64,000 nt of DNA from Trypanosoma brucei (GCA_000002445.1 CP000066.1:1440001-1504000); one strand, 5' to 3'. Counted from the stretch's first letter, positions 1,183-56,088 are shown. The notes: a model not told the origin generated them from the sequence alone. A program made the numbers and translations.

Positions 1183-1246
1183 GTTCCCATATTCTTTTTT
1201 TTGTTCTTGAGGAGTTTTATTGTTTATTGTTTTGTTCTGCTTGCAG
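1183..1246 (+). promoter_or_regulatory. Polypyrimidine tract plus AG dinucleotide: putative trans-splice acceptor for the downstream exonuclease gene
   Basis: A T/C-rich run (ttcccatattcttttttttgttcttg...tgttttgttctgcttgcag) ends in AG at 1245-1246, 13 nt before the first ATG at 1259. This is the standard kinetoplastid polyY-AG layout. Confidence 0.5.
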
Positions 1247-1258
1247 ACTGGATTGGAA

Positions 1259-5888: not shown

Positions 5889-6878
5889 ATGGTTTCTTGC
5901 AAGGCAATACCGGAAAGAGCCAGTGCCAGCAGTAACGGCGTGCAACCTCAAGCGTTTCATACTGACAAATGTTATGACGCTGGAGATATAACTTGCAAGA
6001 AGATGACTAAGAATGAAGGCGATGGAGGTCTATCACAAAGAAAGAATAAACCGCGTGGTCGTCCGCAACCTTTTTCACATTTACTTGTGTGTGACTTCGA
6101 GGCGACGTGTGACGCTGATAGTGCCGGACTGTACCCACACGAGATCATTGAGTTTCCGGTAGTGTGCATTGACACCGCACAACTTGCTGTTGTAGCTGAG
6201 TTTCACTCTTATGTTCACCCAGTGCGCCGTCCGAAACTCACCGCTTTTTGTAAGGAGCTGACTGGCATCACCCAATCGGTAGTTGATGACGCACCAACTC
6301 TGCCGGAGGTGATTCAAAAATTTGGTCAATGGGTTCGTGAAGTGGTGTATCCTCTTTGTAAAATGTGGAAACAACAGTATCCTCCTTCTCAGCTGGCAAG
6401 CAACTGTCTGGGTGATTTGGGAAAAAAATTCAAATATGACGAGAAAGACAATAAAGAGTGGGTGGGTTGCGAACGCATGGTTTGCTTCGCCACCGACGGT
6501 CCGTGGGATATGCGTAAATTCATGCATGAATGCAGCGTGGTCCGCGATGGCCACATTTTTCCGCCGCTTTTCTACCGCTGGGTGGACGTGCGTAAGTGCT
6601 TCAAACAACACTTCAACAAGTGGCCGCGGAAACTGGTCGACATGTTGCGGACGTTGCGTCTCGATTTCGAGGGCAAACAACACAGTGGAATTGACGACTC
6701 CCGAAACATTGCGCGTATCCTCATCGAGTTGATGCGCCGCGGTTTCTTTGTGAAACGCGTTAGTACGATCGAATACAAATGTCCAATGGATGTTGGTGGA
6801 GTGATCCTTACACAAGAAATGCGGGAACTCTGTGATGAGGAAAATGCAAAAGCAAAGCAACGACACCTTCGCGAGTAA
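5889..6878 (+). CDS. ERI-1/3'hExo-family DEDDh 3'-5' exonuclease, compact paralog of the upstream gene
   Basis: ATG at 5889. The exonuclease domain (nt ~6081-6760) contains LLVCDFEATCDAD, HEIIEFPVVCID, FCKELTGITQ, CFATDGPWDMRKFM and QHSGIDDSRNIARILIELM, so all DEDDh catalytic residues are present. It is about 45-50% identical to the upstream gene's domain, with a ~40-aa insertion between Exo I and Exo II. Confidence 0.85.
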   Translation: MVSCKAIPERASASSNGVQPQAFHTDKCYDAGDITCKKMTKNEGDGGLSQRKNKPRGRPQPFSHLLVCDFEATCDADSAGLYPHEIIEFPVVCIDTAQLAVVAEFHSYVHPVRRPKLTAFCKELTGITQSVVDDAPTLPEVIQKFGQWVREVVYPLCKMWKQQYPPSQLASNCLGDLGKKFKYDEKDNKEWVGCERMVCFATDGPWDMRKFMHECSVVRDGHIFPPLFYRWVDVRKCFKQHFNKWPRKLVDMLRTLRLDFEGKQHSGIDDSRNIARILIELMRRGFFVKRVSTIEYKCPMDVGGVILTQEMRELCDEENAKAKQRHLRE

Positions 6879-28810: not shown

Positions 28811-30244
28811 ATGGCTAGCGTGAATGCTCCCACAACTCTCACCAGTGAGCTCTTCCATGCGCTTCCATGCCTGCGGGAGAATCCAACCGATAGTGTGCTC
28901 ACCGCCGCACTGCTGCAATATTGTCAGGATGAAGATCTGGTATCCGCTGCAGATTTACTACTGCGGTTGATGGTGGATCAACCTCATGTGCAGCGGCGTA
29001 TGACACGTTCTGTCGAGAATACACATCGACATGTGCCGTTGCCTCAACCTGGAGATTTGCAGAACTTCACAGATAAGGTGCTAGAAGCGCTATGCGATCG
29101 ACATGTGTCACAACTATCTGAAAACTCAGGTGCTGCTGGGAGGAGTGTGAGGGCTCGCGGTAGCGGTTTTTCTTCGGTATCAGTGAGTGTGTCGGACATG
29201 CTGGCAACTGCAGCTGCATGGGGAAATGATTCCGTGAAATTGGAGGGGCTGGCACCTTTGCAGCCAACTAACCGGAAAGTTCACTTCTTCCCAACAGGCT
29301 GCTCACTGGTGGACCGCCTGCTCGCAGGAACCCCGTCAAATGCCACGGGTGGTGCTCTTGAAGGCGGGTTTTGCGCTGGACTTCTCACGGAGGTGCATGG
29401 TGAAGCAGGAAGCGGAAAGACACAACTTGTATTACAGTGCTTATTCCAATGCGTTGCTAGGCAACAGTGTGCTCTGTATGCTGTGAATCACTTACCCGAG
29501 CTGTTGATCAGCTCAGGCGATGGTGTTGGTGACAACACGTTTATTGATAGTTTGCGTGGCTTTGCAACTGAAAAGGTGGCGGCTCTTTATATTGTGTCTG
29601 AGGGCGTTCCTGCCAGCCGACTTGGGCCACTCGCAACAGGGGCGCTTCATAGAGCAAAAGCGATGGTCCTTTCCGCGGCTTCCCGTCAACCGTCTATTGA
29701 CGTGGAGCTTTTGAAGGCTCGTCTTGATGAATTCGTGACGGAACGAACTGTCGTTGCCGGTGTGGGGATTCGACCAGTTGATGGAGTTGGGGCGTTGTTA
29801 CGACTGCTATCGGATGGTACGCTGTCTAGTGCCTTCTCATCTTTAGGCAATACTGGGGTGGTGGTTGTAGATTCCATTGCAGATGTAGTGGCTGGTGGAT
29901 CTTCGGGCGAGGAGATGAACCGTTGGGAAATTTCCACTACCGTAGCATCTGTGGGGAGTTTGTTGAAGTCATTCGCAGTTAAGGAAGGGGCTGCCGTGGT
30001 AGTAACGAATCAAGTTCGCACGTCGCTATCTGTTTCCGGTGAGGGGATGATACGCCGCCACACACCAGTACCCGCGTTGGGGATGCAATGGGCCGTTGCT
30101 CCTCATGTCCGTGTAAATCTGCGGCGACCGCAAAATACGGCAAACGCATCGCGTCGGCAATTCACGATAATATGCGGCCCTGCTCACCAACCCGCATATT
30201 GCTCTTATTTGATTTGTAACGAAGGTATATGCAACGACGAATGA
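28811..30244 (+). CDS. RAD51 paralog (RecA-fold recombination/repair ATPase) with a ~190-aa N-terminal extension
   Basis: Walker A motif GEAGSGKTQL (nt ~29399-29428). Walker B-like hydrophobic strand ending in D (GVVVVDSIADV). The RAD51-family VVVTNQV motif is at nt ~30000-30020. ATG at 28811. Confidence 0.85.
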   Translation: MASVNAPTTLTSELFHALPCLRENPTDSVLTAALLQYCQDEDLVSAADLLLRLMVDQPHVQRRMTRSVENTHRHVPLPQPGDLQNFTDKVLEALCDRHVSQLSENSGAAGRSVRARGSGFSSVSVSVSDMLATAAAWGNDSVKLEGLAPLQPTNRKVHFFPTGCSLVDRLLAGTPSNATGGALEGGFCAGLLTEVHGEAGSGKTQLVLQCLFQCVARQQCALYAVNHLPELLISSGDGVGDNTFIDSLRGFATEKVAALYIVSEGVPASRLGPLATGALHRAKAMVLSAASRQPSIDVELLKARLDEFVTERTVVAGVGIRPVDGVGALLRLLSDGTLSSAFSSLGNTGVVVVDSIADVVAGGSSGEEMNRWEISTTVASVGSLLKSFAVKEGAAVVVTNQVRTSLSVSGEGMIRRHTPVPALGMQWAVAPHVRVNLRRPQNTANASRRQFTIICGPAHQPAYCSYLICNEGICNDE

Positions 30245-44185: not shown

Positions 44186-47020
44186 ATGGGTCGGGCAACA
44201 GAGGCACAACGTGCCGAAATGGCAAAGGAGGAAAAACTACAGCGGGCGCTGCATGAAAACCGGCAACTCAAACAAGAGGTTCTGGGATTGCGCGATAAGT
44301 TGAAGATATTGCAAGTAAAGTTTAATAAGGTAACTAATGACCTGAAGCGTGTTTCACCTGACATGTTAAAACATCTTAACGAGGTTGCTTCATCCGCTGC
44401 AACATCACCGCCCCTCTCGTCAATGCGGACCGCCACAAGCGTTGGCGGTGCTTATGCTACCCGGCAATCAACACCGGGTAAAAGATCATTTTCTCTTCAG
44501 CCGCATGCGGGAACCGGTGAGGGGGCTGCTCTATCATTGGGAGAGGCGGTGGACCCTGCAGAGTTGCAACAGTGCCGTGAAGCACTTCATCGCGCCCAAT
44601 TAGAGATCGTAGCGTTACGTGCTAATACCGCCGCAACTGTGGGGGGTACAACAGCTGGTCCCTCGCCACCATCTCCGGCTATGGTCACTGTAATAGAAAA
44701 ACTTAGACAGGATCTTGCTAGCGCTGTGGTGGAGCGAGACCAACGCGCTGCTGAGGTTAGTGTACTTCGTGACGAGTTAACACGGACTCGCACCCAACTG
44801 GAAGATGTGCAATTCACTCAACAGCAGCAACTTGCTGTGGAGAGGCACACTTGTGGCATGCTTAACGGGCGTGCCCAAGCGGCCGAGAGTGGAAAACAGC
44901 AGCTGGAAGCCGAATTTCGTCGTTCCGTTGAAATTCTCACACGGGAACGGGATGAACTTGCACTTAAGCTTCGCCTGTTACAAGAGGAGATGGACAGCGA
45001 AAAACGGTACGGGGCGGGCACCGTTGATCCCACACAGCTTGTTCAAGTTCAGGCAGATTTGCAGGATAAGTCAAGGCAAATCACTATTTTGACTAGTCGT
45101 ATGCAAGGGTCGCAGCAGCAGGTGGAGACTCTTAAGAACGAATGCAGTCGCCTTTTGGATGAACTCCAGAAGTTTCACGCGATGCATACAGAAACGAAGC
45201 GGCAGCTACTGGAACTGGAAGGTGAGCGAAATTTGTTGCAAGTACGCTGTGCACGTGTCGAGGAGTTAGAACGGACCGTGAAGCACAAAAGCGAGGAACT
45301 TATTCGTACCGAGCAGGAACTTTTGCGCACAGCAAGTACCCTGCAGAGTTGCAATAGAGAAACTGAAGAGGCTGTTCGACGTGAATTCTCCTCCCGCCTG
45401 GCAGATGTTCAGGGAATGCGGGACTCTGCTGAGGCACAACGGCGTGAAAAGGAACGACAGCTCCTCGAGGCGCAACGTGAGTTGGGGGAGCTGCGTCGTC
45501 AGTTAGAACTCACTCGCGAAAACGCCACTATGTTCCAAGCGCAGTTGGAGAAATCGGAGGAGGAACGACAAAAGTTATCAGCAATGGCCTCCGTGGCGGG
45601 GTATACTGTGAAAGAGTTCGGTGATGAAAAGGTTAGACGTGCCCTGGCGGTAGTGGCCATGCGAGGTGACTCTGGTATTGACCGTAACGGTGGGACCGGA
45701 GGCGTGACAAATGGGTTTAGTGATAAGGTTCCGGTCAATGCGTCAGACGGCGCGGCGGGGGAGGCGCTTGAAATGTGGGATGCACTTCGGTGGGATGAGG
45801 GATGGGAGGCACAACAGTTGCGTGAAGCACTTGCAAGCGCCGCCCTCGACATGGAACTGGCCGAATCCCGCTGTACTCAAATGAACGAACAACTTGAACG
45901 AAATCGTCACCTAATGCAGCAGCTGTCGCATGAACGCGACGCACTGTTAGAAGAGAACATAGAGATGCGGCGGCGGCTCACGCATGTTCAAACTGCGTTT
46001 GCCAAACAGCAACTGGAGTCATACAATGCGGCGAAGACGCGTGGCACCACAAATGGAGGAAAGGGATCAAGCGATGGTATTATCAACTTTTGCATACATG
46101 ATTTGGAGTGTAACGATGCAATGCTGCGTGCTTTGGGTGCTTCCCAAGTCGCCGGTGCGGCTGTCACTCTGTTCTTCTCGCTCGATGGTCTACGGTCGTA
46201 CGATACGATGATGTCGCCCATGTTCTACTCACTTGATAGCCCTCTTGACATACGCTTCTGCTACGATCGTCTTGACCGTGATGAAGCTACTGTTGCGGAG
46301 ATACGTGCAACAACGTTCGTGTTTCAACTTCACCAGGTATGTGGCACGGGAACAAACATTGTCGCTATGGGGGAACTTCCGGGTGTTGCGCTTCTGCAGG
46401 CACGAGAATCAGCCGTTCTGGAACGCGTTAAGCTAGTAAGCGGTAGCGGGGAGGAAGTTGGGGTTGTCGCCGTTGAGATGTGTGCTCTCAACCTGTTGTT
46501 ACCTATTCTGCTGGATCGTCCACTCTCAGGCGTTGGAAAGGATGGCGACTTTTGTCTCAGCTCAGACGCAGTGCGTGCAGCACTGGTGGCCATGCGCAGT
46601 GTCGTTGCACTCCGTGTGCAAGTTTTCCGTGCTGATGGCCTGCAGAATTCACCCACACCGCAACCGTATGTTTTCTACACCGCGGCGATGCCATCTACGA
46701 CACACGGTGGGATTAGTTGTATCCGTGATACAGTTGTTCACACGTCCACGAAAGCCTTAACATCCGATCCTGTGTTTGACGAGGAACCTATCGACCATCG
46801 TGTGGTAGTGGACAGTGAGTTGATTTCATTTGTGTCTGAGAGCTCGGTGGTATTTGTTGTGTTTGACGCGCAGGCGCGAGATGTGCGTTCGAATTTGGGC
46901 GTTGCGGAGGTTCCATTAAGGCCATTACTTGCATCACCACAGGCGGTAATACGCAAGACGGAGGTGTTACATCCACAGGGAACGCTGAGCATCGGACTAT
47001 CGTGGGTGTGTAGAAGTTAA
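44186..47020 (+). CDS. Hypothetical protein: N-terminal ~480-aa coiled coil plus a C-terminal globular region
   Basis: ATG at 44186. Extended heptad-like Q/E/L/R-rich sequence up to ~nt 45650, then a non-repetitive, hydrophobic-core-like C-terminal half. Confidence 0.7.
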   Translation: MGRATEAQRAEMAKEEKLQRALHENRQLKQEVLGLRDKLKILQVKFNKVTNDLKRVSPDMLKHLNEVASSAATSPPLSSMRTATSVGGAYATRQSTPGKRSFSLQPHAGTGEGAALSLGEAVDPAELQQCREALHRAQLEIVALRANTAATVGGTTAGPSPPSPAMVTVIEKLRQDLASAVVERDQRAAEVSVLRDELTRTRTQLEDVQFTQQQQLAVERHTCGMLNGRAQAAESGKQQLEAEFRRSVEILTRERDELALKLRLLQEEMDSEKRYGAGTVDPTQLVQVQADLQDKSRQITILTSRMQGSQQQVETLKNECSRLLDELQKFHAMHTETKRQLLELEGERNLLQVRCARVEELERTVKHKSEELIRTEQELLRTASTLQSCNRETEEAVRREFSSRLADVQGMRDSAEAQRREKERQLLEAQRELGELRRQLELTRENATMFQAQLEKSEEERQKLSAMASVAGYTVKEFGDEKVRRALAVVAMRGDSGIDRNGGTGGVTNGFSDKVPVNASDGAAGEALEMWDALRWDEGWEAQQLREALASAALDMELAESRCTQMNEQLERNRHLMQQLSHERDALLEENIEMRRRLTHVQTAFAKQQLESYNAAKTRGTTNGGKGSSDGIINFCIHDLECNDAMLRALGASQVAGAAVTLFFSLDGLRSYDTMMSPMFYSLDSPLDIRFCYDRLDRDEATVAEIRATTFVFQLHQVCGTGTNIVAMGELPGVALLQARESAVLERVKLVSGSGEEVGVVAVEMCALNLLLPILLDRPLSGVGKDGDFCLSSDAVRAALVAMRSVVALRVQVFRADGLQNSPTPQPYVFYTAAMPSTTHGGISCIRDTVVHTSTKALTSDPVFDEEPIDHRVVVDSELISFVSESSVVFVVFDAQARDVRSNLGVAEVPLRPLLASPQAVIRKTEVLHPQGTLSIGLSWVCRS

Positions 47021-48201: not shown

Positions 48202-48666
48202 TGCTATTGGTAGCATTTTCGTTGTTTCATTTCGTAACCTCCTTGAGGGGTGGTGTTGTACGCTCTAACTCGAGGGTGCTGGCCAGCGCTTTTGCATACC
48301 TTCTCTTGAGTGGAGGAAACAACCTCTTCAGCACTGCTGTGCTCAACAACCGTACGATCTACTGGCAATGTTTGCTTTTCTGTTCTTTTTTTCTTTTGCA
48401 GCATTCACCAAATTCACTTACTCCTTCCTATTCAACGATTTCCCTATTGACGCCGGATTTCCCCCATTTGAAGGTCAGGTGGAAGTAGCGAAGGAACAAA
48501 AAGGAAAAATAAAGGAAGAAGAAAACAAGAAAAGACACCTCGAAGTGGCGGGACTTGTTTATTTCTTTGCCAGTTGTGCTGCCTCTACGAGTTACTGACA
48601 CAGCTTTCTTTTTCTAGTTTTTATTGTGTTTGTCGGCACTGTTGACGACCGAGGTGCAGCGCAGGG

Positions 48667-51600
48667 ATGGACGGTTATCTTCCTAACCTTACCAGGGAGA
48701 GTTTAAACATCCCTACGAGAGGGATTTCCGGTCAAAACCAATGGCGGACGGTGCGTCGTGTTTGCAACACTGCGAGCTCTCACGATGGTTATAAAAAAAT
48801 GCTTGAGGGTGTTCGAAGGCAATTCCTTGAACCAGCATATCAGGTGCCGGTATCACGACTACCTGATGTTCCGGTACCATGCCGCCCGCCGCCCTCCTCT
48901 TCCTCTCCCGGTCGTTTCTCGCGGAACCTTCAGTACACTGTGAAGGATCGAAAAATTGTGAAGAAGGAGGAGGAAGATATATGCAGCCCCTCACTGGAAG
49001 CACTGGAGGAAAATGGACGGCAGCACATCATTGTGAATGAAGTTTGGGAGCGGCAGGTTTTGAAGCAGATGATGATTGTCCGTTATGTTACATTTGTGCT
49101 CCGGGATGAGATACGCGACTTGGAGCTTGTTGAACGAGAGCAGCGTGGCACCATCGCCTTTGAGGAGGAGAAGGAGCGCTATTGGTTGCAACATGAATCT
49201 GATGCGAGCGTTCAACTCCGTGAATACAAGTTGGCACTTTCAGCTAAGAGGGAAAAGCAGAAGAGACTACAAGAGAACGAGGCGTTGTATCGTGCTCGAT
49301 CGTCAAGTTCTCCGTTTCCCATGAATGAATTCAAGATGGAACCTGATGCCCAGAAAATCCTTCAGGAGTATCTAAAGATGAAACATCTTGCAGACGACGG
49401 TGAAGGCCAGCCTCAAGAATGCCCCCATCCCCCACTCCGGAGGTCGCCGCAGCAGCAGCGATCAGCTGAGCGCTACAGGCGATTGATAGGTAAAGTTTCC
49501 AGTCACAATAACCCACCAGTGGTTCGTGTGCAACCACTCAGTAACGTATGCAATACCTTGGGTATTGCAGCTTATATGGGTCTTCTGGAGAAAGACTCGG
49601 AGAGCCGTAAAATGATTGAGGAGCGTGAGGAGGAGGAGTACAAACGCATCATGGAGCATTTTGAGGAGCAGTCCTCTCTACTGCTGACGTGGAAGCACAA
49701 ACGCCTGCACTTGGAGCGGCTTATTTATTGGAAAGCTCAGAGTGAGGAGCGCCGGCAAAAGGAGCAACTCAGGATTGAAATGGAGGTGCTGAGGCCTCGA
49801 AAGCAGATGGCAATGCCGCACGAGGAGTTGGCGGCGCAGGAGGAAGAATTCCGTAATATGCTCGGAGCTGAAGAAGGCACGCGGCGTGGGGATTTGTTGC
49901 AGCTGCACAACGAATACTTCATGCGCACAAAGGCAAAGGCATTAGGCAATGAGGAAATGAATCTGCGGGCCCATATTCTTCAAGAAGATATTGGGGTCCG
50001 AAAGCTTCTCGTCCAGGGCCTGGAAATTATATTGCGGCAGGGTATTTGCAAGGAATGGGAGCAGAATGTTGTGATGCTTGTGCCTGAGCAGATTCAGGCG
50101 CTGGCGAAACTAAATCGAGAATGGATTGAGCACGAGAAGCAGATTCTAACGATCCAGAGGGCAGTACGTAGCTTTCGCGCCGGTCGACTCGGGTGGCGTA
50201 TCACCCATTCTGAAATCGGTCGCATTATACAAAAGAAGCGCGATATCGCAAAGATTGATCGCGGCAAAAAGTCACTTTGCGAGTACAAGAATTATCTTGC
50301 CTCGGAGTTCGCCGCCGTCGAAGAGGAAGTACGCACACTTCATGCTAATGAACGTAATAAATTGTTTGATGTAGAGTACAACAGCCGAACGATCGTGTAT
50401 ACTGAGGAGGAATGGAATCGGGGCGTGCTGCGGCGTACCGAGCGACAGGATCTATACGACAGCGTGATAGTTCCACTTGTAACAAACTGTTTCTCCGCTG
50501 AGTTAGACGCCCGCCGTGAAATTGATGTTGAAGAGGAATTCGTTCGCGGAAGGATGTGCAATTTTTTCAACCGCCTCAGTAACATCATCCGGACAAAGAC
50601 GTACGTTCTGGGGCGTGAGGTGGAAGGACGTGCCGCCATCGAAAAGGATGAAAACAATTTTTTTTTTTCAATCCTCTGCATGGAGCTAGACGACCGCGAT
50701 TTGGTTCGCATAATGATGAAAGAAATCCAAGCACAAAAGGAAGAAGAGCTGTTCGCGCAGGCGTTGGTTCTGCTTGAGTCGCGGAAAGAGGAGGAGATGT
50801 ACATGTACGCACGCCTTACTAGACTTCATTATGAATTCAAACGTGAAAAACTGGAGATTGAAGCTTTGGACCCAAATCCTCGGGCATTAATTGCTCACAC
50901 TTTTTTGAACACTGCACTCTGTTTTTTCTGTGACGAATCGGTTAAGTTTCTTGAAAACTATGGGTCGCTTCTGGTAGAGCAACATTCTGAAATTGTATAT
51001 TTGTGCTGCGTTGCGATTACGGAGGAAAGGGAGGAGGAAGCTCGCCACCTCCTTGAGCGGTTGGAGAGTCGTGCATGGCCCGAAATAACTGATTGTGCTC
51101 ACCGGGAAATGAGTTCAAAACTTAGAAAGGAACTCCGAAATATAGGAGCCGCTAGCCGAATAAAAATTTTCTATAGGAAATACCGGAATGGTGATGTAGG
51201 AAGGTCAGGCATGCGGAAGCACCTTCGCGAAGCCTTTCGCGTAATGCGAGAGAAGGCAGAGCTGAAGGAGGTTTTTGACAGGCAGCGCATTGACGTTCAG
51301 GAGTGCAGGCACAACCTCCGTGATGCGGTCGCGATACAATCCTACTACACATACAGACGTATTGCTCTTGAGCTTAGTGTAGTCGAGAATAGAGCAGAAC
51401 CCCGCGGTCGCTCAGAGTTGGAGGGTCAGGAAGAGATGATGTTCAAAATGATTTTAAACTACTTTGAACCCCCTGCTGTCCCCATGGTAGATGCAGTAAC
51501 AATATTGTTGCACAGTGAGTCGCATGGTCGTATACGAATCAAAAAAGAGTGGCAGAAGGCTATTGAAAACGATTTTACAAGAAGAAAAGAGTGGTTTGAG

Positions 51601-54600
51601 AAGGATGTGTTGGCGATCATAACGCTGAGGAAGTGGCAAAAGTTTGCTGCAGTGAAGCGCAAGAGGACTTTCATAAAGGCCGAGCTAGAAAAGCTGGTTC
51701 TATCTGAACTTACACAGCGTCATGAATTAGAGTTAAACGAGACGAATGAGCGATTTATCGATATCGTTAAACCCATGGAGTACACCACACATCACCAAGC
51801 GTATCTGGATCAAGATGTGCCGCGTTTCTTAAACGAGATGTGCTTCGATATTGGTTTCCACCTTGGAATAAAAGAGGAAGAGTGGCAAAACCGCATGCTT
51901 TTGCTATGGAGGATGCGTAACAGTTACCACGAGAAAGAGCTGGAAACTGAAGAATTTGCTACCCGCGCCGCCCTACAACAGAGCAGTTTCTACGACGGTG
52001 TTGACTTAATTGAGGTTGTTTGCGACGAAAGTATCTTGCGAGCAGCACTCTGTGATGAGCGTAGATACTTCTTGATGCGAATACTGGCAAGGTTGGAAAG
52101 AGCTTCACGTGGGGATATTATCCACAGCTACGACATCCACTCGCTATGGATGCACGAATATACATGCAGAAAGGAACTCTACGTTGAATACATATATTCT
52201 CTCCACCATATTGCCCCGGAAAAGAACACAATACAACATACAAAGTGTTTGCTCATCGATGCTGAAATATCACACACCACAGAAGCAGAAGAAAGCTACG
52301 AAAAGTCTACAAATCACCAACCGCTCAACGACAATGCAGAGGACAATAATATAACATCCTCAGCAAATATAGTTGATCAAACAAACGCCACCCCTCAGGG
52401 ACCAATAGTTGACCAACCTGCAGAAGATCTCACCAAGGCTGAGGAGCTTGATGAACCTGTTGCTGATACTGAAGTAGCTGAGAAGGAGCCTACTGATTCT
52501 GAGGTGATCCCTGAAAAGGAAATTCCAGACACTGAAGCTGCGGCTGAGCAACCTGCAGAAGATCTCACCAAGGCTGAGGAGCTTGATGAACCTGTTGCTG
52601 ACACTGAAGTAGCTGAGAAGGAACCTACTGATTCTGAGGTGATCCTTGAAAAGCAAATTCCAGACACTGAAGCTGCGGCTGAGCAACCTGCAGAAGATCT
52701 CACCAAGGCTGAGGAGCTTGATGAACCTGTTGCTGACACTGAAGTAGCTGAGAAGGAGCCTACTGATTCTGAGGTGATCCCTGAAAAGGAAATTCCAGAC
52801 ACTGAAGCTGCGGCTGAGCAACCTGCAGAAGATCTCACCAAGGCTGAGGAGCTTGATGAACCTGTTGCTGACACTGAAGTAGCTGAGAAGGAACCTACTG
52901 ATTCTGAGGTGATCCCTGAAAAGCAAATTCCAGACACTGAAGCTGCGGCTGAGCAACCTGCAGAAGATCTCACCAAGGCTGAGGAGCTTGATGAACCTGT
53001 TGCTGACACTGAAGTAGCTGAGAAGGAACCTACTGATTCTGAGGTGATCCCTGAAAAGGAAATTCCAGACACTGAAGCTGCGGCTGAGCAACCTGCAGAA
53101 GATCTCACCAAGGCTGGGGAGCTTGATGAACCTGTTGCTGACACTGAAGTAGCTGAGAAGGAACCTACTGATTCTGAGGTGATCCCTGAAAAGGAAATTC
53201 CAGACACTGAAGCTGCGGCTGAGCAACCTGCAGAAGATCTCACCAAGGCTGAGGAGCTTGATGAACCTGTTGCTGACACTGAAGTAGCTGAGAAGGAGCC
53301 TACTGATTCTGAGGTGATCCTTGAAAAGGAAATTCCAGACGCTGAAGCTGCGGCTGAACAACCTGCAGAAGATCTCACCAAGGCTGAGGAGCTTGATGAA
53401 CCTGTTGCTGACACTGAAGTAGCTGAGAAGGAACCTACTGATTCTGAGGTGATCCTTGAAAAGGAAATTCCAGACACTGAAGCTGCGGCTGAGCAACCTG
53501 CAGAAGATCTCACCAAGGCTGAGGAGCTTGATGAACCTGCTGCTGACACTGAAGTAGCTGAGAAGGAACCTACTGATTCTGAGGTGATCCCTGAAAAGCA
53601 AATTCCAGACACTGAAGCTGCGGCTGAGCAACCTGCAGAAGATCTCACCAAGGCTGAGGAGCTTGATGAACCTGTTGCTGACACTGAAGTAGCTGAGAAG
53701 GAGCCTACTGATTCTGAGGTGATCCCTGAAAAGGAAATTCCAGACACTGAAGCTGCGGCTGAGCAACCTGCAGAAGATCTCACCAAGGCTGAGGAGCTTG
53801 ATGAACCTGTTGCTGACACTGAAGTAGCTGGGAAGGAACCTACTGATTCTGAGGTGATCCCTGAAAAGGAAATTCCAGACACTGAAGCTGCGGCTGAACA
53901 ACCTGCAGAAGATCTCACCAAGGCTGAGGAGCTTGATGAACCTGTTGCTGACACTGAAGTAGCTGAGAAGGAACCTACTGATTCTGAGGTGATCCCTGAA
54001 AAGGAAATTCCAGACACTGAAGCTGCGGCTGAACAACCTGCAGAAGATCTCACCAAGGCTGAGGAGCTTGATGAACCTGTTGCTGACACTGAAGTAGCTG
54101 AGAAGGAGCCTACTGATTCTGAGGTGATCCCTGAAAAGCAAATTCCAGACACTGAAGCTGCGGCTGAGCAACCTGCAGAAGATCTCACCAAGGCTGAGGA
54201 GCTTGATGAACCTGTTGCTGACACTGAAGTAGCTGAGAAGGAGCCTACTGATTCTGAGGTGATCCCTGAAAAGGAAATTCCAGACACTGAAGCTGCGGCT
54301 GAACAACCTGCAGAAGATCTCACCAAGGCTGAGGAGCTTGATGAACCTGCTGCTGACACTGAAGTAGCTGGGAAGGAACCTACTGATTCTGAGGTGATCC
54401 CTGAAAAGGAAATTCCAGACACTGAAGCTGCGGCTGAACAACCTGCAGAAGATCTCACCAAGGCTGAGGAGCTTGATGAACCTGTTGCTGACACTGAAGT
54501 AGCTGAGAAGGAACCTACTGATTCTGAGGTGATCCCTGAAAAGGAAATTCCAGACACTGAAGCTGCGGCTGAGCAACCTGCAGAAGATCTCACCAAGGCT

Positions 54601-55053
54601 GAGGAGCTTGATGAACCTGTTGCTGACACTGAAGTAGCTGAGAAGGAGCCTACTGATTCTGAGGTGATCCTTGAAAAGGAAATTCCAGACACTGAAGCTG
54701 CGGCTGAACAACCTGCAGAAGATCTCACCAAGGCTGAGGAGCTTGATGAACCTGTTGCTGACACTGAAGTAGCTGAGAAGGAGCCTACTGATTCTGAGGT
54801 GATCCCTGAAAAGCAAATTCCAGACACTGAAGCTGCGGCTGAACAACCTGCAGAAGATCTCACCAAGGCTGAGGAGCTTGATGAACCTGTTGCTGACACT
54901 GAAGTAGCTGAGAAGGAACCTACTGATTCTGAGGTGATCCCTGAAAAGCAAATTCCAGACACTGAAGCTGCGGCTGAGCAACCTGCAGAAGATCTCACCA
55001 AGGCTGAGGAGCTTGATGAACCTGCTGCTGATGCTGAAGTAGCTGAAATGTAG
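48667..55053 (+). CDS. Very large protein (2,128 aa): ~1,250-aa E/R/K-rich helical N-terminal region followed by ~19.5 tandem copies of an acidic 45-aa repeat
   Basis: ATG at 48667. A single ORF runs through the whole repeat array. The repeat unit is QPAEDLTKAEELDEPVADTEVAEKEPTDSEVIPEKEIPDTEAAAE. The stop codon lies inside a degenerate final copy (...EPAADAEVAEM*). Confidence 0.85.
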   Translation: MDGYLPNLTRESLNIPTRGISGQNQWRTVRRVCNTASSHDGYKKMLEGVRRQFLEPAYQVPVSRLPDVPVPCRPPPSSSSPGRFSRNLQYTVKDRKIVKKEEEDICSPSLEALEENGRQHIIVNEVWERQVLKQMMIVRYVTFVLRDEIRDLELVEREQRGTIAFEEEKERYWLQHESDASVQLREYKLALSAKREKQKRLQENEALYRARSSSSPFPMNEFKMEPDAQKILQEYLKMKHLADDGEGQPQECPHPPLRRSPQQQRSAERYRRLIGKVSSHNNPPVVRVQPLSNVCNTLGIAAYMGLLEKDSESRKMIEEREEEEYKRIMEHFEEQSSLLLTWKHKRLHLERLIYWKAQSEERRQKEQLRIEMEVLRPRKQMAMPHEELAAQEEEFRNMLGAEEGTRRGDLLQLHNEYFMRTKAKALGNEEMNLRAHILQEDIGVRKLLVQGLEIILRQGICKEWEQNVVMLVPEQIQALAKLNREWIEHEKQILTIQRAVRSFRAGRLGWRITHSEIGRIIQKKRDIAKIDRGKKSLCEYKNYLASEFAAVEEEVRTLHANERNKLFDVEYNSRTIVYTEEEWNRGVLRRTERQDLYDSVIVPLVTNCFSAELDARREIDVEEEFVRGRMCNFFNRLSNIIRTKTYVLGREVEGRAAIEKDENNFFFSILCMELDDRDLVRIMMKEIQAQKEEELFAQALVLLESRKEEEMYMYARLTRLHYEFKREKLEIEALDPNPRALIAHTFLNTALCFFCDESVKFLENYGSLLVEQHSEIVYLCCVAITEEREEEARHLLERLESRAWPEITDCAHREMSSKLRKELRNIGAASRIKIFYRKYRNGDVGRSGMRKHLREAFRVMREKAELKEVFDRQRIDVQECRHNLRDAVAIQSYYTYRRIALELSVVENRAEPRGRSELEGQEEMMFKMILNYFEPPAVPMVDAVTILLHSESHGRIRIKKEWQKAIENDFTRRKEWFEKDVLAIITLRKWQKFAAVKRKRTFIKAELEKLVLSELTQRHELELNETNERFIDIVKPMEYTTHHQAYLDQDVPRFLNEMCFDIGFHLGIKEEEWQNRMLLLWRMRNSYHEKELETEEFATRAALQQSSFYDGVDLIEVVCDESILRAALCDERRYFLMRILARLERASRGDIIHSYDIHSLWMHEYTCRKELYVEYIYSLHHIAPEKNTIQHTKCLLIDAEISHTTEAEESYEKSTNHQPLNDNAEDNNITSSANIVDQTNATPQGPIVDQPAEDLTKAEELDEPVADTEVAEKEPTDSEVIPEKEIPDTEAAAEQPAEDLTKAEELDEPVADTEVAEKEPTDSEVILEKQIPDTEAAAEQPAEDLTKAEELDEPVADTEVAEKEPTDSEVIPEKEIPDTEAAAEQPAEDLTKAEELDEPVADTEVAEKEPTDSEVIPEKQIPDTEAAAEQPAEDLTKAEELDEPVADTEVAEKEPTDSEVIPEKEIPDTEAAAEQPAEDLTKAGELDEPVADTEVAEKEPTDSEVIPEKEIPDTEAAAEQPAEDLTKAEELDEPVADTEVAEKEPTDSEVILEKEIPDAEAAAEQPAEDLTKAEELDEPVADTEVAEKEPTDSEVILEKEIPDTEAAAEQPAEDLTKAEELDEPAADTEVAEKEPTDSEVIPEKQIPDTEAAAEQPAEDLTKAEELDEPVADTEVAEKEPTDSEVIPEKEIPDTEAAAEQPAEDLTKAEELDEPVADTEVAGKEPTDSEVIPEKEIPDTEAAAEQPAEDLTKAEELDEPVADTEVAEKEPTDSEVIPEKEIPDTEAAAEQPAEDLTKAEELDEPVADTEVAEKEPTDSEVIPEKQIPDTEAAAEQPAEDLTKAEELDEPVADTEVAEKEPTDSEVIPEKEIPDTEAAAEQPAEDLTKAEELDEPAADTEVAGKEPTDSEVIPEKEIPDTEAAAEQPAEDLTKAEELDEPVADTEVAEKEPTDSEVIPEKEIPDTEAAAEQPAEDLTKAEELDEPVADTEVAEKEPTDSEVILEKEIPDTEAAAEQPAEDLTKAEELDEPVADTEVAEKEPTDSEVIPEKQIPDTEAAAEQPAEDLTKAEELDEPVADTEVAEKEPTDSEVIPEKQIPDTEAAAEQPAEDLTKAEELDEPAADAEVAEM
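52414..55053 (+). repeat. 135-nt coding tandem repeat, ~19.5 copies, >97% identical
   Basis: The period was measured directly: caacctgcagaagatctcacc recurs at 52414, 52549, 52684 and so on. Copies differ only at a few positions (gag/gaa; E/Q in EKEIP vs EKQIP; P/L in IPEK vs ILEK; V/A in VADT vs AADT; E/G in AEKE vs AGKE). Confidence 0.97.
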
Positions 55054-56088
55054 TTGATTATCTTTAAAATTTTGATTGTTGGTAATATTTGTGACGTTGC
55101 TTGTCTTTTATTTTGATTTTTTTGCAAAATTTCTTATTGTTTTTTGTAGAAATTTGAATAATTTTGTATTTTGAATTCTGTTGTCCAGGTTTGTAAACCT
55201 TTTTTTAAAAGTTTTTACTTTCTGCTGTTATGTCTTTCTGGTTATATATGTATTTTGTATTCCCTTTACTTTGGTTATCTTTTGGTTGAAAGGGTAGAGG
55301 GTGGAGATATGTAAATATATGCGTGTGTGTGTGAATAGAATTTTTGTAGGTTTTTGTGGTCGAATTTGTTTCTTGATGAGTTTTTTTTTGTTAAAAAAGT
55401 GTTTCTGTAATGATATCATGTTTTTTTGTGTCTTTACTGAGGTGCTGTGAGAGTGTTGTGCTTTATGGTATTTAGGTTTTTTTGTGGTTGTGTGAATTGT
55501 GTGAATGTTTGTCTTTTCAGTTGGTCGGCGAATTGAGTTTCTAGTGGGTTTGTTCTCCACATTCTATGTAAATTATTTTCGGTGTTTCTTTCCAATCGGA
55601 AAATTATTCTTGTTTAATGTTTTATGTACTGCTTTGACTGTTAAATTTTTTTTGCAATGATTGCTCAATTTTTTGTCCTCCATTTTCTCCCCGATTAACA
55701 TTAGATTTACTTTGAGGAGATATTAGTTTGTGCGCACTAATTTGGTTGGTAGTAGGCACATTTGTAGAGGGAAGGGATAAAGGGCTATTATTTTTTTTTG
55801 TTTTTTTGACAGGATCTCCGCGTGTGTGAGGGGACCAACCTAAAGTTGTAAGAGAGCAGTGAGTTAAGCAACCGAGAGGGAGATTAGGGACGCTATCACT
55901 AACCAGGATAGCCATATATATTATTAGTGTGATTTTGAAGGCTACGTTACCCCAGATACAACAAGCTGTGAGAAAGGAGGAAAGTTCTGCAAAGGGAGAA
56001 GTATATATACCCCTTCCTTCGTCCTTTACTATTTTCTTGTTTGTTTTTATACGCCTCTGAAGGTGAGGGCTAGGGACGTTGTGCTCCA

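What the first reader, a model, noticed from the sequence alone, without database searches (positions are those of the whole stretch)
48667..55053. 2,128-aa protein ending in ~19.5 near-identical copies of a 45-aa acidic repeat, with the stop codon inside the last copy
The repeat QPAEDLTKAEELDEPVADTEVAEKEPTDSEVIPEKEIPDTEAAAE has a 135-nt period, copies more than 97% identical at the nucleotide level, and occupies 52414-55053. It follows a 1,250-aa E/R/K-rich helical region that includes an IQ-like stretch (IQRAVRSFRAGRLGWR). Two things follow from such high identity: recent expansion or strong concerted evolution, and a real chance that the true copy number differs from the assembly. Large acidic tandem-repeat proteins in trypanosomatids are typically cytoskeleton-associated and immunodominant B-cell antigens. 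The few variable positions (E/Q, P/L, V/A, E/G) recur in a patterned way, so the copies are not all equivalent.
Basis: seen in the sequence. Interest (0 to 1): 0.6.

Follow-up and report, generated by a model that had tools for sequence, protein, structure and literature searches.

The report
Known trypanosome flagellar repeat antigen TbI2

Summary
ORF 48667-55053 (+) encodes 2,128 aa, and its last 879 aa are 19 full copies plus one 23-aa partial copy of a 45-aa (135-nt) acidic unit (mean pairwise identity 98.1%).

It is not new. The protein is 100% identical to T. brucei TREU927 XP_844121.1/Q580U4 ("paraflagellar rod protein"). The neighbouring genes place it at Tb927.3.5310, which the PFR literature equates with TbI2. 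TbI2 is a >180-kDa repeat antigen cloned in 1995 with infected-cattle serum and immunogold-localised over the whole paraflagellar rod.

- A long-read T. b. equiperdum assembly has 44.5 copies, and short-read assemblies break inside the array.
- The two arrays differ by array-wide fixed substitutions, which indicates concerted evolution.
- The IQ-like stretch fails the IQ consensus and Pfam, although it lies in the family's most conserved block.

New but modest points:
- The ~1,150-aa helical domain defines a small family (22 representative clusters); every named member is a trypanosomatid.
- All Trypanosoma orthologs have acidic tails.
- At least four lineages carry tandem arrays of dissimilar units (45, 14, 38 and 15 aa) at the same position.

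Likely mechanism: a helical domain anchored in the PFR plus a disordered polyanionic tail.

The parts
48370..48401 (+). Polypyrimidine tract followed by AG upstream of the start codon: candidate trans-splice acceptor. A second tract plus AG lies at about 48606-48617.
   Evidence: Read directly from the sequence. The function is inferred from the standard kinetoplastid arrangement and was not tested.
48667..55053 (+). Complete coding sequence of Tb927.3.5310 (TbI2, 'paraflagellar rod protein'): 2,128 aa, 242.8 kDa, pI 4.43.
   Evidence: ORF. 2128/2128 identity to XP_844121.1/Q580U4. Neighbours match Tb927.3.5330 (ArfGAP) and Tb927.3.5340 (Hip). TbI2 = Tb927.3.5310 in PMC2813431. Mass and pI.
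48724..52176 (+). Conserved helical domain (residues about 20-1170), the part shared by all orthologs.
   Evidence: 36-39% identity to five other Trypanosoma species with many invariant columns. phmmer finds only 22 representative clusters in 1.84 billion proteins, and all named ones are trypanosomatids. AF2 secondary structure is 74% helix, but pLDDT is 42.6, so the fold is unknown. No Pfam family above cutoff and no PDB relative.
50143..50208 (+). Conserved block 1 (residues 493-514, ILTIQRAVRSFRAGRLGWRITH).
   Evidence: I496, Q497, G506, G509, W510, R511, T513 and H514 are invariant in six Trypanosoma species, and the block is recognisable in the distant family members I read. It fails the strict and core IQ regex and has no Pfam IQ hit.
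51151..51216 (+). Conserved block 2 (residues 829-850, ASRIKIFYRKYRNGDVGRSGMR), with the same I[QK]xxxRxxxxGxxG[WR] pattern as block 1.
   Evidence: Invariant A829, I832, K833, F835, R837, Y839, G842, V844, G845, G848. The equivalent site in distant member P0021 gives a sub-threshold Pfam IQ hit (10.8 bits against a cutoff of 20.3).
51613..51666 (+). Block 3 (residues 983-1000, AIITLRKWQKFAAVKRKR), a degenerate basic amphipathic stretch.
   Evidence: The equivalent sites in T. conorhini and T. rangeli give the best Pfam IQ hits, still sub-threshold (13.0 and 13.6 bits, E 0.095 and 0.061), and match the core IQ regex in T. grayi and T. conorhini. The T. brucei sequence itself does not match.
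52177..52413 (+). Unique, poorly conserved polar/acidic linker (residues 1171-1249) between the conserved domain and the array.
   Evidence: The alignment loses conservation after about residue 1165. Sequence read.
52414..54978 (+). 19 full in-frame copies of the 135-nt / 45-aa acidic unit QPAEDLTKAEELDEPVADTEVAEKEPTDSEVIPEKEIPDTEAAAE.
   Evidence: TRF. Copy-by-copy table. The repeat half (residues 1250-2128) has pI 4.05, 36.7% D+E, 10.6% P, no aromatics or Cys, net charge about -265. AF2 gives no secondary structure. '19 times' matches the motif count Portman et al. 2009 report for TbI2.
54979..55053 (+). Terminal partial unit (23 aa, diverged at V16A and T19A), then Met and TAG supplied by the unique flank.
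   Evidence: The same ending is present in T. b. equiperdum.
52360..55127 (-). Two long antisense 'ORFs' (873 and 910 aa). These are artefacts of a stop-free repeat unit, not genes.
   Evidence: Two of the three minus-strand frames have zero stops across the array. Only the + frame continues from the conserved domain shared with orthologs.

Best explanation
The ORF is Tb927.3.5310, the Trypanosoma brucei paraflagellar-rod (PFR) protein TbI2. It is a known high-molecular-weight repetitive flagellar antigen with two parts.

(a) Conserved domain. An N-terminal, almost entirely helical domain of about 1,150 aa is shared by all family members; every named one is a trypanosomatid. I infer that this part is built into the PFR lattice. 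It contains two or three conserved basic IQ-like blocks that are candidate, untested, docking sites for calmodulin or a similar light chain.

(b) Acidic tail. The C-terminal tail in T. brucei is a tandem array of a 45-aa unit: proline-punctuated, free of aromatics, with a net charge of about -265 in the reference. I infer that it is intrinsically disordered and projects from the lattice as a flexible polyanionic extension. Because it is multivalent and released when parasites lyse, it is also a dominant B-cell epitope.

The array evolves by unequal exchange and gene conversion. That keeps copies nearly identical within a strain, lets whole arrays diverge between strains, and changes copy number (19.5 in TREU927, 44.5 in T. 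b. equiperdum IVM-t1).

Shown here: identity, anatomy, conservation, copy-number difference, concerted evolution, composition.
Taken from the literature: PFR localisation, seroreactivity, expression, RNAi fitness cost.
Inferred: the anchor and disordered-tail division of labour, and any calmodulin binding.
For: Identity: 2128/2128 identity to XP_844121.1/Q580U4, 'Paraflagellar rod protein', on a 1,653,225-bp contig. Downstream ORFs carry ArfGap and HipN/TPR/STI1 domains, matching Tb927.3.5330 and Tb927.3.5340 as described in papers. TbI2 = Tb927.3.5310. TbI2 carries a motif 19 times, which matches the 19 full units.

Localisation and antigenicity: I2 was cloned with infected bovine serum from the >180-kDa fraction, and anti-I2 immunogold labels the whole PFR (PMC2813431).

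Expression and fitness: 72.6 rpkm; RIT-seq ratios 0.10 and 0.08 (PMC3332058).

Conserved domain. Helical content 889/1200 residues.

Tail properties. No predicted secondary structure. Prolines at unit positions 2, 15, 26, 33 and 38 leave no proline-free stretch longer than 12 residues (read from the unit sequence).

Copy number: 44.5 copies in L001 (44 full units plus a partial one).

Concerted evolution: site 21 is C in 19/19 copies vs T in 43/43; site 54 is C in 18/19 vs T in 42/42; each array has private polymorphisms. Within TREU927 the variants form a mosaic.

Acidic tails occur in all Trypanosoma orthologs, with tandem arrays in T. congolense (about 36 x 14 aa), T. conorhini and T. rangeli (38 aa) and T. 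theileri (15 aa).

Calmodulin is a PFR component required for PFR assembly (PMC7272336).
Against: The equation I2 = Tb927.3.5310 rests on a published table. I could not read the 1995 paper or align its cDNA.

TbI2 was not detected in the PFR2-dependent PFR proteome (Portman 2009), so its place within the PFR is not pinned down.

The tertiary model of the conserved domain is unusable (pLDDT 42.6), and nothing shows which part binds the lattice.

The disorder call for the tail rests on composition and a single-sequence AF2 run, which is weak evidence.

IQ membership fails the tests for the T. brucei sequence.

The apparent homogeneity of the long-read L001 array may be partly a polishing artefact, and its units carry indel errors.

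No specific function for the tail has been demonstrated. It may be functionally neutral.
Confidence: 0.85

Rival explanations
1. The array is real, but the 19.5-copy figure is an assembly artefact. The TREU927 reference collapsed a longer array, and the true protein is much larger, for example about 365 kDa with about 45 copies.
For: Units are 98% identical, and the 2.6-kb array exceeds a single Sanger read. A long-read assembly of a close relative has 44.5 copies. Short-read assemblies of three species terminate inside their arrays. 44.5 copies would give 3,253 aa and 364.6 kDa.
Against: The TREU927 array has a non-periodic mosaic of nine variable sites with zero indels and an intact frame over 19 copies, as expected from a resolved rather than collapsed array. 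The 44.5-copy array belongs to a different subspecies and carries array-wide fixed differences, so a genuine strain difference explains it equally well. '>180 kDa' in the 1995 work fits either size.
Confidence: 0.3
2. The repeat tail has no structural role in the flagellum. It is a selectively neutral product of replication slippage and unequal crossing-over in a tail that tolerates any acidic low-complexity sequence.
For: Units are dissimilar between lineages (45, 14, 38 and 15 aa). A profile of the 38-aa units does not recognise the 45-aa unit (1.6 bits; 182 of 3000 shuffles do as well; BLAST E = 0.02 at best). T. cruzi, T. grayi and T. vivax have no array. Copy number differs more than 2-fold between close relatives. 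Six of the nine variable sites in TREU927 are nonsynonymous.
Against: Every Trypanosoma ortholog keeps a strongly acidic tail (complete models pI 4.05-4.16). Amplification at the same position in at least four lineages hints that length or charge matters. The frame is preserved over 19 copies with no stop or indel.
Confidence: 0.3
3. The array is maintained mainly as an immune decoy. A multivalent, T-independent B-cell epitope, released on lysis, diverts the antibody response from protective targets.
For: I2 was found because infected-cattle serum recognises it strongly, and it is described as diagnostically useful (title of Imboden et al. 1995). Near-identical multivalent repeats are typical of trypanosomatid serodominant antigens (established knowledge). 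Arrays are largest in the two bloodstream-dwelling species, T. brucei and T. congolense.
Against: The protein is intraflagellar and only exposed after lysis. Antigenicity may simply be a by-product of multivalency. Arrays also occur in T. theileri, T. rangeli and T. conorhini, which have different host relationships. There are no data on host benefit or harm.
Confidence: 0.12
4. It is a microtubule- or FAZ-associated repeat protein (like MARP, FAZ1 or GM6) rather than a PFR component.
For: General resemblance: a large cytoskeletal protein with near-identical repeats. TbI2 is absent from the PFR2-dependent proteome.
Against: Immunogold with anti-I2 labels the whole PFR. UniProt and RefSeq-derived names say paraflagellar rod protein. 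The acidic repeat (pI 4.05) would be repelled by acidic tubulin tails, unlike basic MAP repeats (inference).
Confidence: 0.03

Closest known systems
TbI2 (I2 antigen; Tb927.3.5310; Imboden et al. 1995; Portman & Gull 2010)
   Same: It is the same gene. 100% identity to the TREU927 protein at this locus, 19 repeats, a high-molecular-weight repetitive protein (242.8 kDa predicted, against >180 kDa reported).
   Different: Nothing differs. This work adds the copy-number contrast with T. b. equiperdum, the concerted-evolution evidence and the family-wide view of the tail.
Tb5.20 (Tb927.11.15100 / Tb11.01.6740), repetitive PFR distal-domain protein recognised by ROD1
   Same: A repetitive T. brucei PFR protein found by antiserum screening. 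It shares with TbI2 the short 'meme2' motif (53 copies in Tb5.20, 19 in TbI2) according to Portman 2009. It also shows an RNAi fitness cost in RIT-seq.
   Different: A different gene on chromosome 11. It carries a PFR domain (PF05149) and EF-hand motifs. The present protein has neither.
TbI17 (Tb10.26.0960)
   Same: Cloned in the same 1995 screen; a high-molecular-weight repeat protein of the flagellar cytoskeleton.
   Different: It labels the PFR-axoneme linker zone rather than the whole PFR, and it is a different gene.
T. congolense ortholog (P0039 / CCD12204.1 cluster)
   Same: Orthologous conserved domain (46% identity over the fragment matched) and a C-terminal acidic tandem array at the same position.
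   Different: The unit is 14 aa (EEGVAEDQQEKQAP), about 36 copies, with no demonstrable sequence relationship to the 45-aa unit.
Other trypanosomatid tandem-repeat cytoskeletal antigens (MARP-1, GM6/FAZ11, T. cruzi FRA, Leishmania K39)
   Same: Large cytoskeleton- or flagellum-associated proteins with near-identical in-frame repeats that are serodominant and used in diagnostics (otherwise established knowledge).
   Different: Unrelated sequences and different structures (subpellicular microtubules, FAZ, kinesin). MARP repeats bind microtubules, whereas this repeat is strongly acidic.

Membership tests
TbI2 / Tb927.3.5310 (T. brucei PFR repeat protein) | Sequence identical or near-identical to the TREU927 chromosome 3 gene product XP_844121.1 / Q580U4 | tested here: met
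   2128/2128 identical. The cluster names it 'Paraflagellar rod protein'.
TbI2 / Tb927.3.5310 (T. brucei PFR repeat protein) | Genomic position immediately upstream of Tb927.3.5320/5330/5340 | tested here: met
   The downstream ORFs carry UBA/UBX, ArfGap and HipN/TPR/STI1-DP domains. Papers describe Tb927.3.5330 as an ArfGAP/centaurin homolog and Tb927.3.5340 as Hsc70-interacting protein.
TbI2 / Tb927.3.5310 (T. brucei PFR repeat protein) | Repeat motif present 19 times (Portman et al. 2009) | tested here: met
   19 full 45-aa units against 'contains this motif 19 times'. The motif sequence itself was not available.
TbI2 / Tb927.3.5310 (T. brucei PFR repeat protein) | Localisation to the paraflagellar rod and recognition by infection sera | not testable with these tools
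   Literature only: immunogold over the whole PFR, cloned with infected bovine serum (PMC2813431).
PFR1/PFR2 family (Pfam PF05149, PFR domain) | Presence of the PFR domain | tested here: not met
   No PF05149 hit, even at E <= 10, in this protein or five orthologs.
IQ calmodulin-binding motif proteins (Pfam PF00612) | A match to the IQ model above the gathering score, or to the consensus [FILV]Qxxx[RK]Gxxx[RK] | tested here: not met
   No Pfam IQ hit in the T. brucei protein at E <= 10. The strict and core regex both fail. Orthologs give only sub-threshold hits (at most 13.6 bits against a cutoff of 20.3) at other sites.
IQ calmodulin-binding motif proteins (Pfam PF00612) | Physical binding of calmodulin or a light chain | not testable with these tools
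   Calmodulin is a PFR component, but no binding data exist for this protein.
Trypanosomatid tandem-repeat B-cell antigens (operational class) | Many near-identical in-frame tandem units within a large protein | tested here: met
   19.5 units, 98.1% mean identity, no indels.
Trypanosomatid tandem-repeat B-cell antigens (operational class) | Strong antibody response in infected hosts | not testable with these tools
   Literature: Imboden et al. 1995, as summarised.
Coiled-coil / filament-forming helical proteins | Long uninterrupted helices with heptad periodicity and oligomerisation | tested here: inconclusive
   AF2 predicts helices up to 113 residues and 74% helix overall, but pLDDT is 42.6 and pTM 0.25. 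Heptad analysis was not done. No PDB relative.

The most novel reading that the evidence does not exclude
Dissimilar acidic units have been tandemly amplified at the same C-terminal position of this PFR protein in at least four Trypanosoma lineages: T. brucei 45 aa, T. congolense 14 aa, T. conorhini/T. rangeli 38 aa and T. theileri 15 aa. All Trypanosoma orthologs keep an acidic tail. The most novel reading is that tail length and charge, not sequence, are under selection. The tail would then be a tunable physical element of the paraflagellar rod, for example an entropic spacer or spring in the lattice, or a high-capacity divalent-cation buffer next to PFR calmodulin. Copy-number variation (19.5 vs 44.5) would then be functional variation in flagellar mechanics or signalling.
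Probability: 0.15. Interest if true: 0.5.

Novelty: already known. Interest (0 to 1): 0.2.

Why it matters
As a discovery it matters little. The gene is annotated, named (TbI2) and was characterised in 1995 as a PFR component and diagnostic antigen.

It still has some practical value:

1. Copy number of this array is not a reliable constant. It is 19.5 in the reference and 44.5 in a long-read relative, and the array is missing or truncated in short-read assemblies, which produced wrong gene models: 1,252 aa in T. equiperdum OVI, a split 769+635 aa model in IVM-t1, and 'partial' models in T. conorhini, T. rangeli and T. theileri. Anyone using the predicted mass, designing RNAi or CRISPR reagents, or quantifying peptides or reads for this gene should know this.

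2. The strain-specific homogenised unit variants (for example VAD to VTD in T. b. equiperdum) could affect the cross-reactivity of repeat-based serodiagnostics, and might serve as strain markers.

3. The recurrent tail amplification across Trypanosoma gives a small, testable hypothesis about what acidic disordered tails do in the PFR.

Tried and rejected
- Repeat-only homolog search (4 consensus units) against 5.8 billion cluster representatives found nothing. This is uninformative, because this protein's own cluster is represented by the truncated T. equiperdum model, which lacks the array.
- Homology between the T. brucei 45-aa unit and the stercorarian 38-aa unit. BLAST gave only AAEQP...ELD, 8/16, E = 0.02 against T. 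cruzi, and nothing against T. conorhini. A profile of six 38-aa units scored 1.6 bits, equalled or exceeded by 182 of 3000 shuffles. I rejected the claim of a shared ancestral unit as not shown.
- AF2 of residues 1-1200 with a 6-sequence alignment gave pLDDT 42.6 and pTM 0.25. I therefore ran no fold search, since the matches would be meaningless.
- PDB sequence and profile searches found nothing.
- Pfam: no PFR domain and no IQ hit. Only a sub-cutoff DUF7007 hit (18.5 bits against 27), which I disregard.
- Higher-order periodicity of unit variants: none, only a mosaic.
- Goto et al. 2011 (PMC3225496) is not held. The Portman 2009 supplements with the meme2 motif are not held. Imboden et al. 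1995 is not held. Searches for alternative identifiers (Q580U4, XP_844121, LmjF29.0350 and others) found no further papers.
- Rfam and tRNA scans of the window found nothing.
- The first attempt to segment the L001 array stopped after 5 units because the score cut-off was too strict. It was redone.
- Two hmmsearch runs failed on incompatible options and were redone.

Full report

Yes. The window has a 2,128-aa ORF at 48667..55053 on the + strand. Tandem Repeats Finder reports a single outstanding array at 52410-55046: period 135 nt, 19.5 copies, 97% matches, no indels, score 5022. In the reading frame there are 19 full units (52414-54978). A 23-aa partial unit follows (54979-55047), then ATG TAG. 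Each unit differs from the consensus at 0-4 positions. Mean pairwise identity is 98.1% and the minimum is 95.6%.

Two details need correcting.
- Homology to the unit ends about 5 nt before the stop codon. The stop therefore belongs to the unique flank rather than lying 'inside' a copy. The same ending occurs in T. b. equiperdum.
- The recurrent variants (V/A, E/G, P/L, E/Q and two synonymous sites) are real but form a mosaic without periodicity. Nine of 15 site pairs show all four allele combinations, and neighbouring copies are no more alike than distant ones.

The two long antisense ORFs over the array are by-products of a stop-free unit.

**2. What is it?**

All large ORFs in the window are on one strand and are separated by pyrimidine-rich spacers, as in a kinetoplastid polycistronic unit. 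The non-repeat part is 99% identical to a T. equiperdum 'paraflagellar rod protein'. The full ORF is 100% identical (2128/2128) to T. brucei brucei TREU927 XP_844121.1 / AAZ10562.1 / UniProt Q580U4, on a 1,653,225-bp contig.

The downstream ORFs carry UBA/UBX, ArfGap and HipN/TPR/STI1 domains. Papers describe Tb927.3.5330 as an ArfGAP/centaurin homolog and Tb927.3.5340 as Hsc70-interacting protein. This places the ORF at Tb927.3.5310.

Portman & Gull 2010 (PMC2813431) list TbI2 = Tb927.3.5310. They summarise the original work (Imboden et al. 1995): infected bovine serum, affinity-purified on proteins >180 kDa, labelled the flagellum. [quoted passage not shown] Anti-I2 immunogold labelled the whole PFR. 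Portman et al. 2009 (PMC2645819) note that TbI2 contains a short motif 19 times, which matches the 19 full units here.

The gene is expressed in bloodstream forms at 72.6 rpkm, about 3-4 mRNAs per cell on that paper's scale. RNAi against it is depleted about 10-fold in the RIT-seq screen (PMC3332058).

So the finding is a rediscovery of a named, localised, seroreactive protein.

**3. Anatomy**

*The N-terminal domain.* Residues about 20-1170 are conserved at 36-39% identity in T. grayi, T. conorhini, T. cruzi, T. c. marinkellei and T. rangeli, with many invariant columns. A full HMMER scan of 1.84 billion representative proteins finds only 22 related clusters, 21 of them at E <= 1e-10. The named ones are Trypanosoma (including T. 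theileri, T. vivax, T. congolense), Leishmania and Phytomonas. The rest are unnamed assemblies.

No Pfam family passes its cutoff, including the PFR domain of PFR1/PFR2. No solved structure is related. AlphaFold2 with the 6-sequence alignment gives an unusable fold (pLDDT 42.6, pTM 0.25) but predicts 889 of 1200 residues in long helices. This supports 'helical' at the level of secondary structure only.

*The IQ-like stretch.* IQRAVRSFRAGRLGWR (residues 496-511) lies in the most conserved block of the family (I496, Q497, G506, G509, W510 and R511 are invariant). It nevertheless fails the strict and the core IQ consensus and gets no Pfam IQ hit. The sub-threshold IQ hits in orthologs (at most 13.6 bits; cutoff 20.3) map to the equivalents of residues about 830-848 and 985-1000 instead. 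Blocks 493-514 and 829-850 share the pattern I[QK]xxxRxxxxGxxG[WR]. Calmodulin is a PFR component needed for PFR assembly (PMC7272336). Calmodulin docking is therefore a reasonable lead, but IQ membership is not met.

*The tail.* The repeat half (879 aa, 94.7 kDa) has pI 4.05, 36.7% D+E, 10.6% Pro, no aromatic or Cys residues, and a net charge of about -265. Prolines at unit positions 2, 15, 26, 33 and 38 leave no proline-free stretch longer than 12 residues. AF2 on the last 4.5 units gives no secondary structure (pLDDT 52.6). This is weak evidence, but it fits an intrinsically disordered polyanion.

**4. Copy number and evolution of the array**

In the long-read assembly of T. b. equiperdum IVM-t1 (GCA_003543875.1, locus L001), the same gene has 44.5 units (44 full units plus the same partial end). 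That adds about 3.3 kb between this gene's start and the next gene's start. Indel errors split the gene there into 769- and 635-aa models.

The short-read T. equiperdum OVI contig has a 10-N gap and ends 1.3 units into the array. That explains the truncated 1,252-aa model, which is also the representative of this protein's cluster.

The two arrays differ by array-wide substitutions:
- Site 21 is C in 19/19 TREU927 units and T in 43/43 IVM-t1 units.
- Site 54 is C in 18/19 against T in 42/42.
- Site 49 is G in 19/19 against A in 32/39, which changes VAD to VTD.
- The TREU927 polymorphisms at sites 47, 68, 75, 98 and 106 are absent from IVM-t1, which has its own at sites 49 and 109.

The first and the terminal partial units of TREU927 carry the 'equiperdum' allele at site 54, as expected for edge copies that escape homogenisation.

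One caveat is that long-read polishing can homogenise copies. Whether TREU927 truly has 19.5 copies remains open. The clean, indel-free mosaic argues for a resolved array, and the 44.5-copy array is from another subspecies.

**5. The tail across the family**

All Trypanosoma orthologs have acidic tails; the complete models have pI 4.05-4.16. Near-identical tandem arrays sit at the same position in several lineages:
- T. congolense: about 36 x 14 aa, EEGVAEDQQEKQAP.
- T. conorhini and T. rangeli: 114-nt units, at least 2.8 and 2.7 copies at 96-97% identity. Both contigs end inside the array, and synteny is conserved.
- T. theileri: 15-aa units in a model flagged partial.

T. cruzi has one 38-aa unit. 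T. grayi and T. vivax have acidic but non-repetitive tails. The non-Trypanosoma members whose tails were scored lack such arrays.

The 45-aa unit is not demonstrably homologous to the 38-aa unit. Amplification of dissimilar acidic units has therefore recurred in the same tail. This may mean that length and charge are selected. It may equally mean that a disordered tail simply tolerates expansion.

**6. Most likely mechanism**

The conserved helical domain is the part assembled into the PFR lattice. This is an inference from its conservation wherever the family is found. The acidic repeat is a disordered, highly charged extension. Antibodies to I2, presumably raised to repeat-containing clones, decorate the whole PFR. 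The tail's multivalency explains its serodominance after parasite lysis. The array's length and sequence are kept homogeneous within a lineage, and changed between lineages, by unequal recombination and conversion.

Rivals, each given with evidence and refutation tests in its own section:
- the reference copy number is a collapse (0.3);
- the tail is neutral (0.3);
- the tail is an immune decoy (0.12);
- the protein is a FAZ or microtubule protein (0.03, contradicted by immunogold).

**7. Novelty and score**

Already known. The additions here are:
- the 19.5 vs 44.5 copy-number contrast;
- direct evidence of concerted evolution;
- the failure of the IQ test;
- a small family whose named members are all trypanosomatids;
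- recurrent tail amplification;
- several mis-annotated orthologs.

These are useful housekeeping and offer a modest hypothesis, but they would not surprise a specialist. Interest 0.2.

Noticed in passing
window 52360-54981 (-) and 52395-55127 (-): Two antisense 'ORFs' of 873 and 910 aa span the repeat. They exist only because the 135-nt unit has no stop codon in two minus-strand frames, and they are not genes.
   Followed up: yes
L002 13703-13990 (T. equiperdum OVI, CZPT02001505.1): A 10-N gap with duplicated flanking sequence, and the contig ends 1.3 units into the array. The annotated 1,252-aa protein SCU70619.1 therefore ends in out-of-frame junk and lacks the repeat, yet it serves as the database cluster representative for this protein.
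   Followed up: partly
L001 10001-19722 (T. b. equiperdum IVM-t1, CM010674.1): The gene is split into 769-aa and 635-aa models (plus a 98-aa fragment). Repeat unit lengths range from 105 to 149 nt (mostly 133-136), which looks like long-read indel error rather than biology.
   Followed up: partly
P0030 (T. vivax Y486 CCC47298.1), residues ~690-1060: A stretch of about 175 aa of the conserved domain (RKAELEKSEEAQRTVVEEEQQYGLSCL...) occurs twice in tandem, nearly identically, in a model flagged 'fragment'. It is probably an assembly duplication. It pushes the end of the conserved domain to residue 1324, against about 1150 in other species.
   Followed up: no
P0014, P0015, P0018, P0020 (unnamed Logan and EukProt assemblies, possibly Leishmaniinae-like), C-terminal ~450 aa: These distant family members carry a different C-terminal extension, with three degenerate repeats of about 95 aa, each containing a 'PSSFAP' motif, followed by a short acidic end. 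P0018 (3,412 aa) looks like a fused gene model.
   Followed up: no
window 50143-50208 and 51151-51216: Two conserved blocks of the protein (residues 493-514 and 829-850) share the pattern I[QK]xxxRxxxxGxxG[WR]. This could be an internal duplication of a family-specific IQ-like motif.
   Followed up: partly
window 44186-47020 (+): The gene two positions upstream of the PFR gene encodes a 944-aa protein with an RPGRIP1-type C2 domain (PF11618, E = 1.5e-08), a domain typical of ciliary transition-zone proteins. It is syntenic in T. conorhini, T. rangeli and T. b. equiperdum.
   Followed up: no
window 1220-3547 (+), 5889-6878 (+), 28811-30244 (+): Two RNase_T-type exonuclease ORFs lie close together, and there is one ORF with a weak Rad51-like C-terminal match. 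Several other large ORFs in the window have no Pfam family.
   Followed up: no
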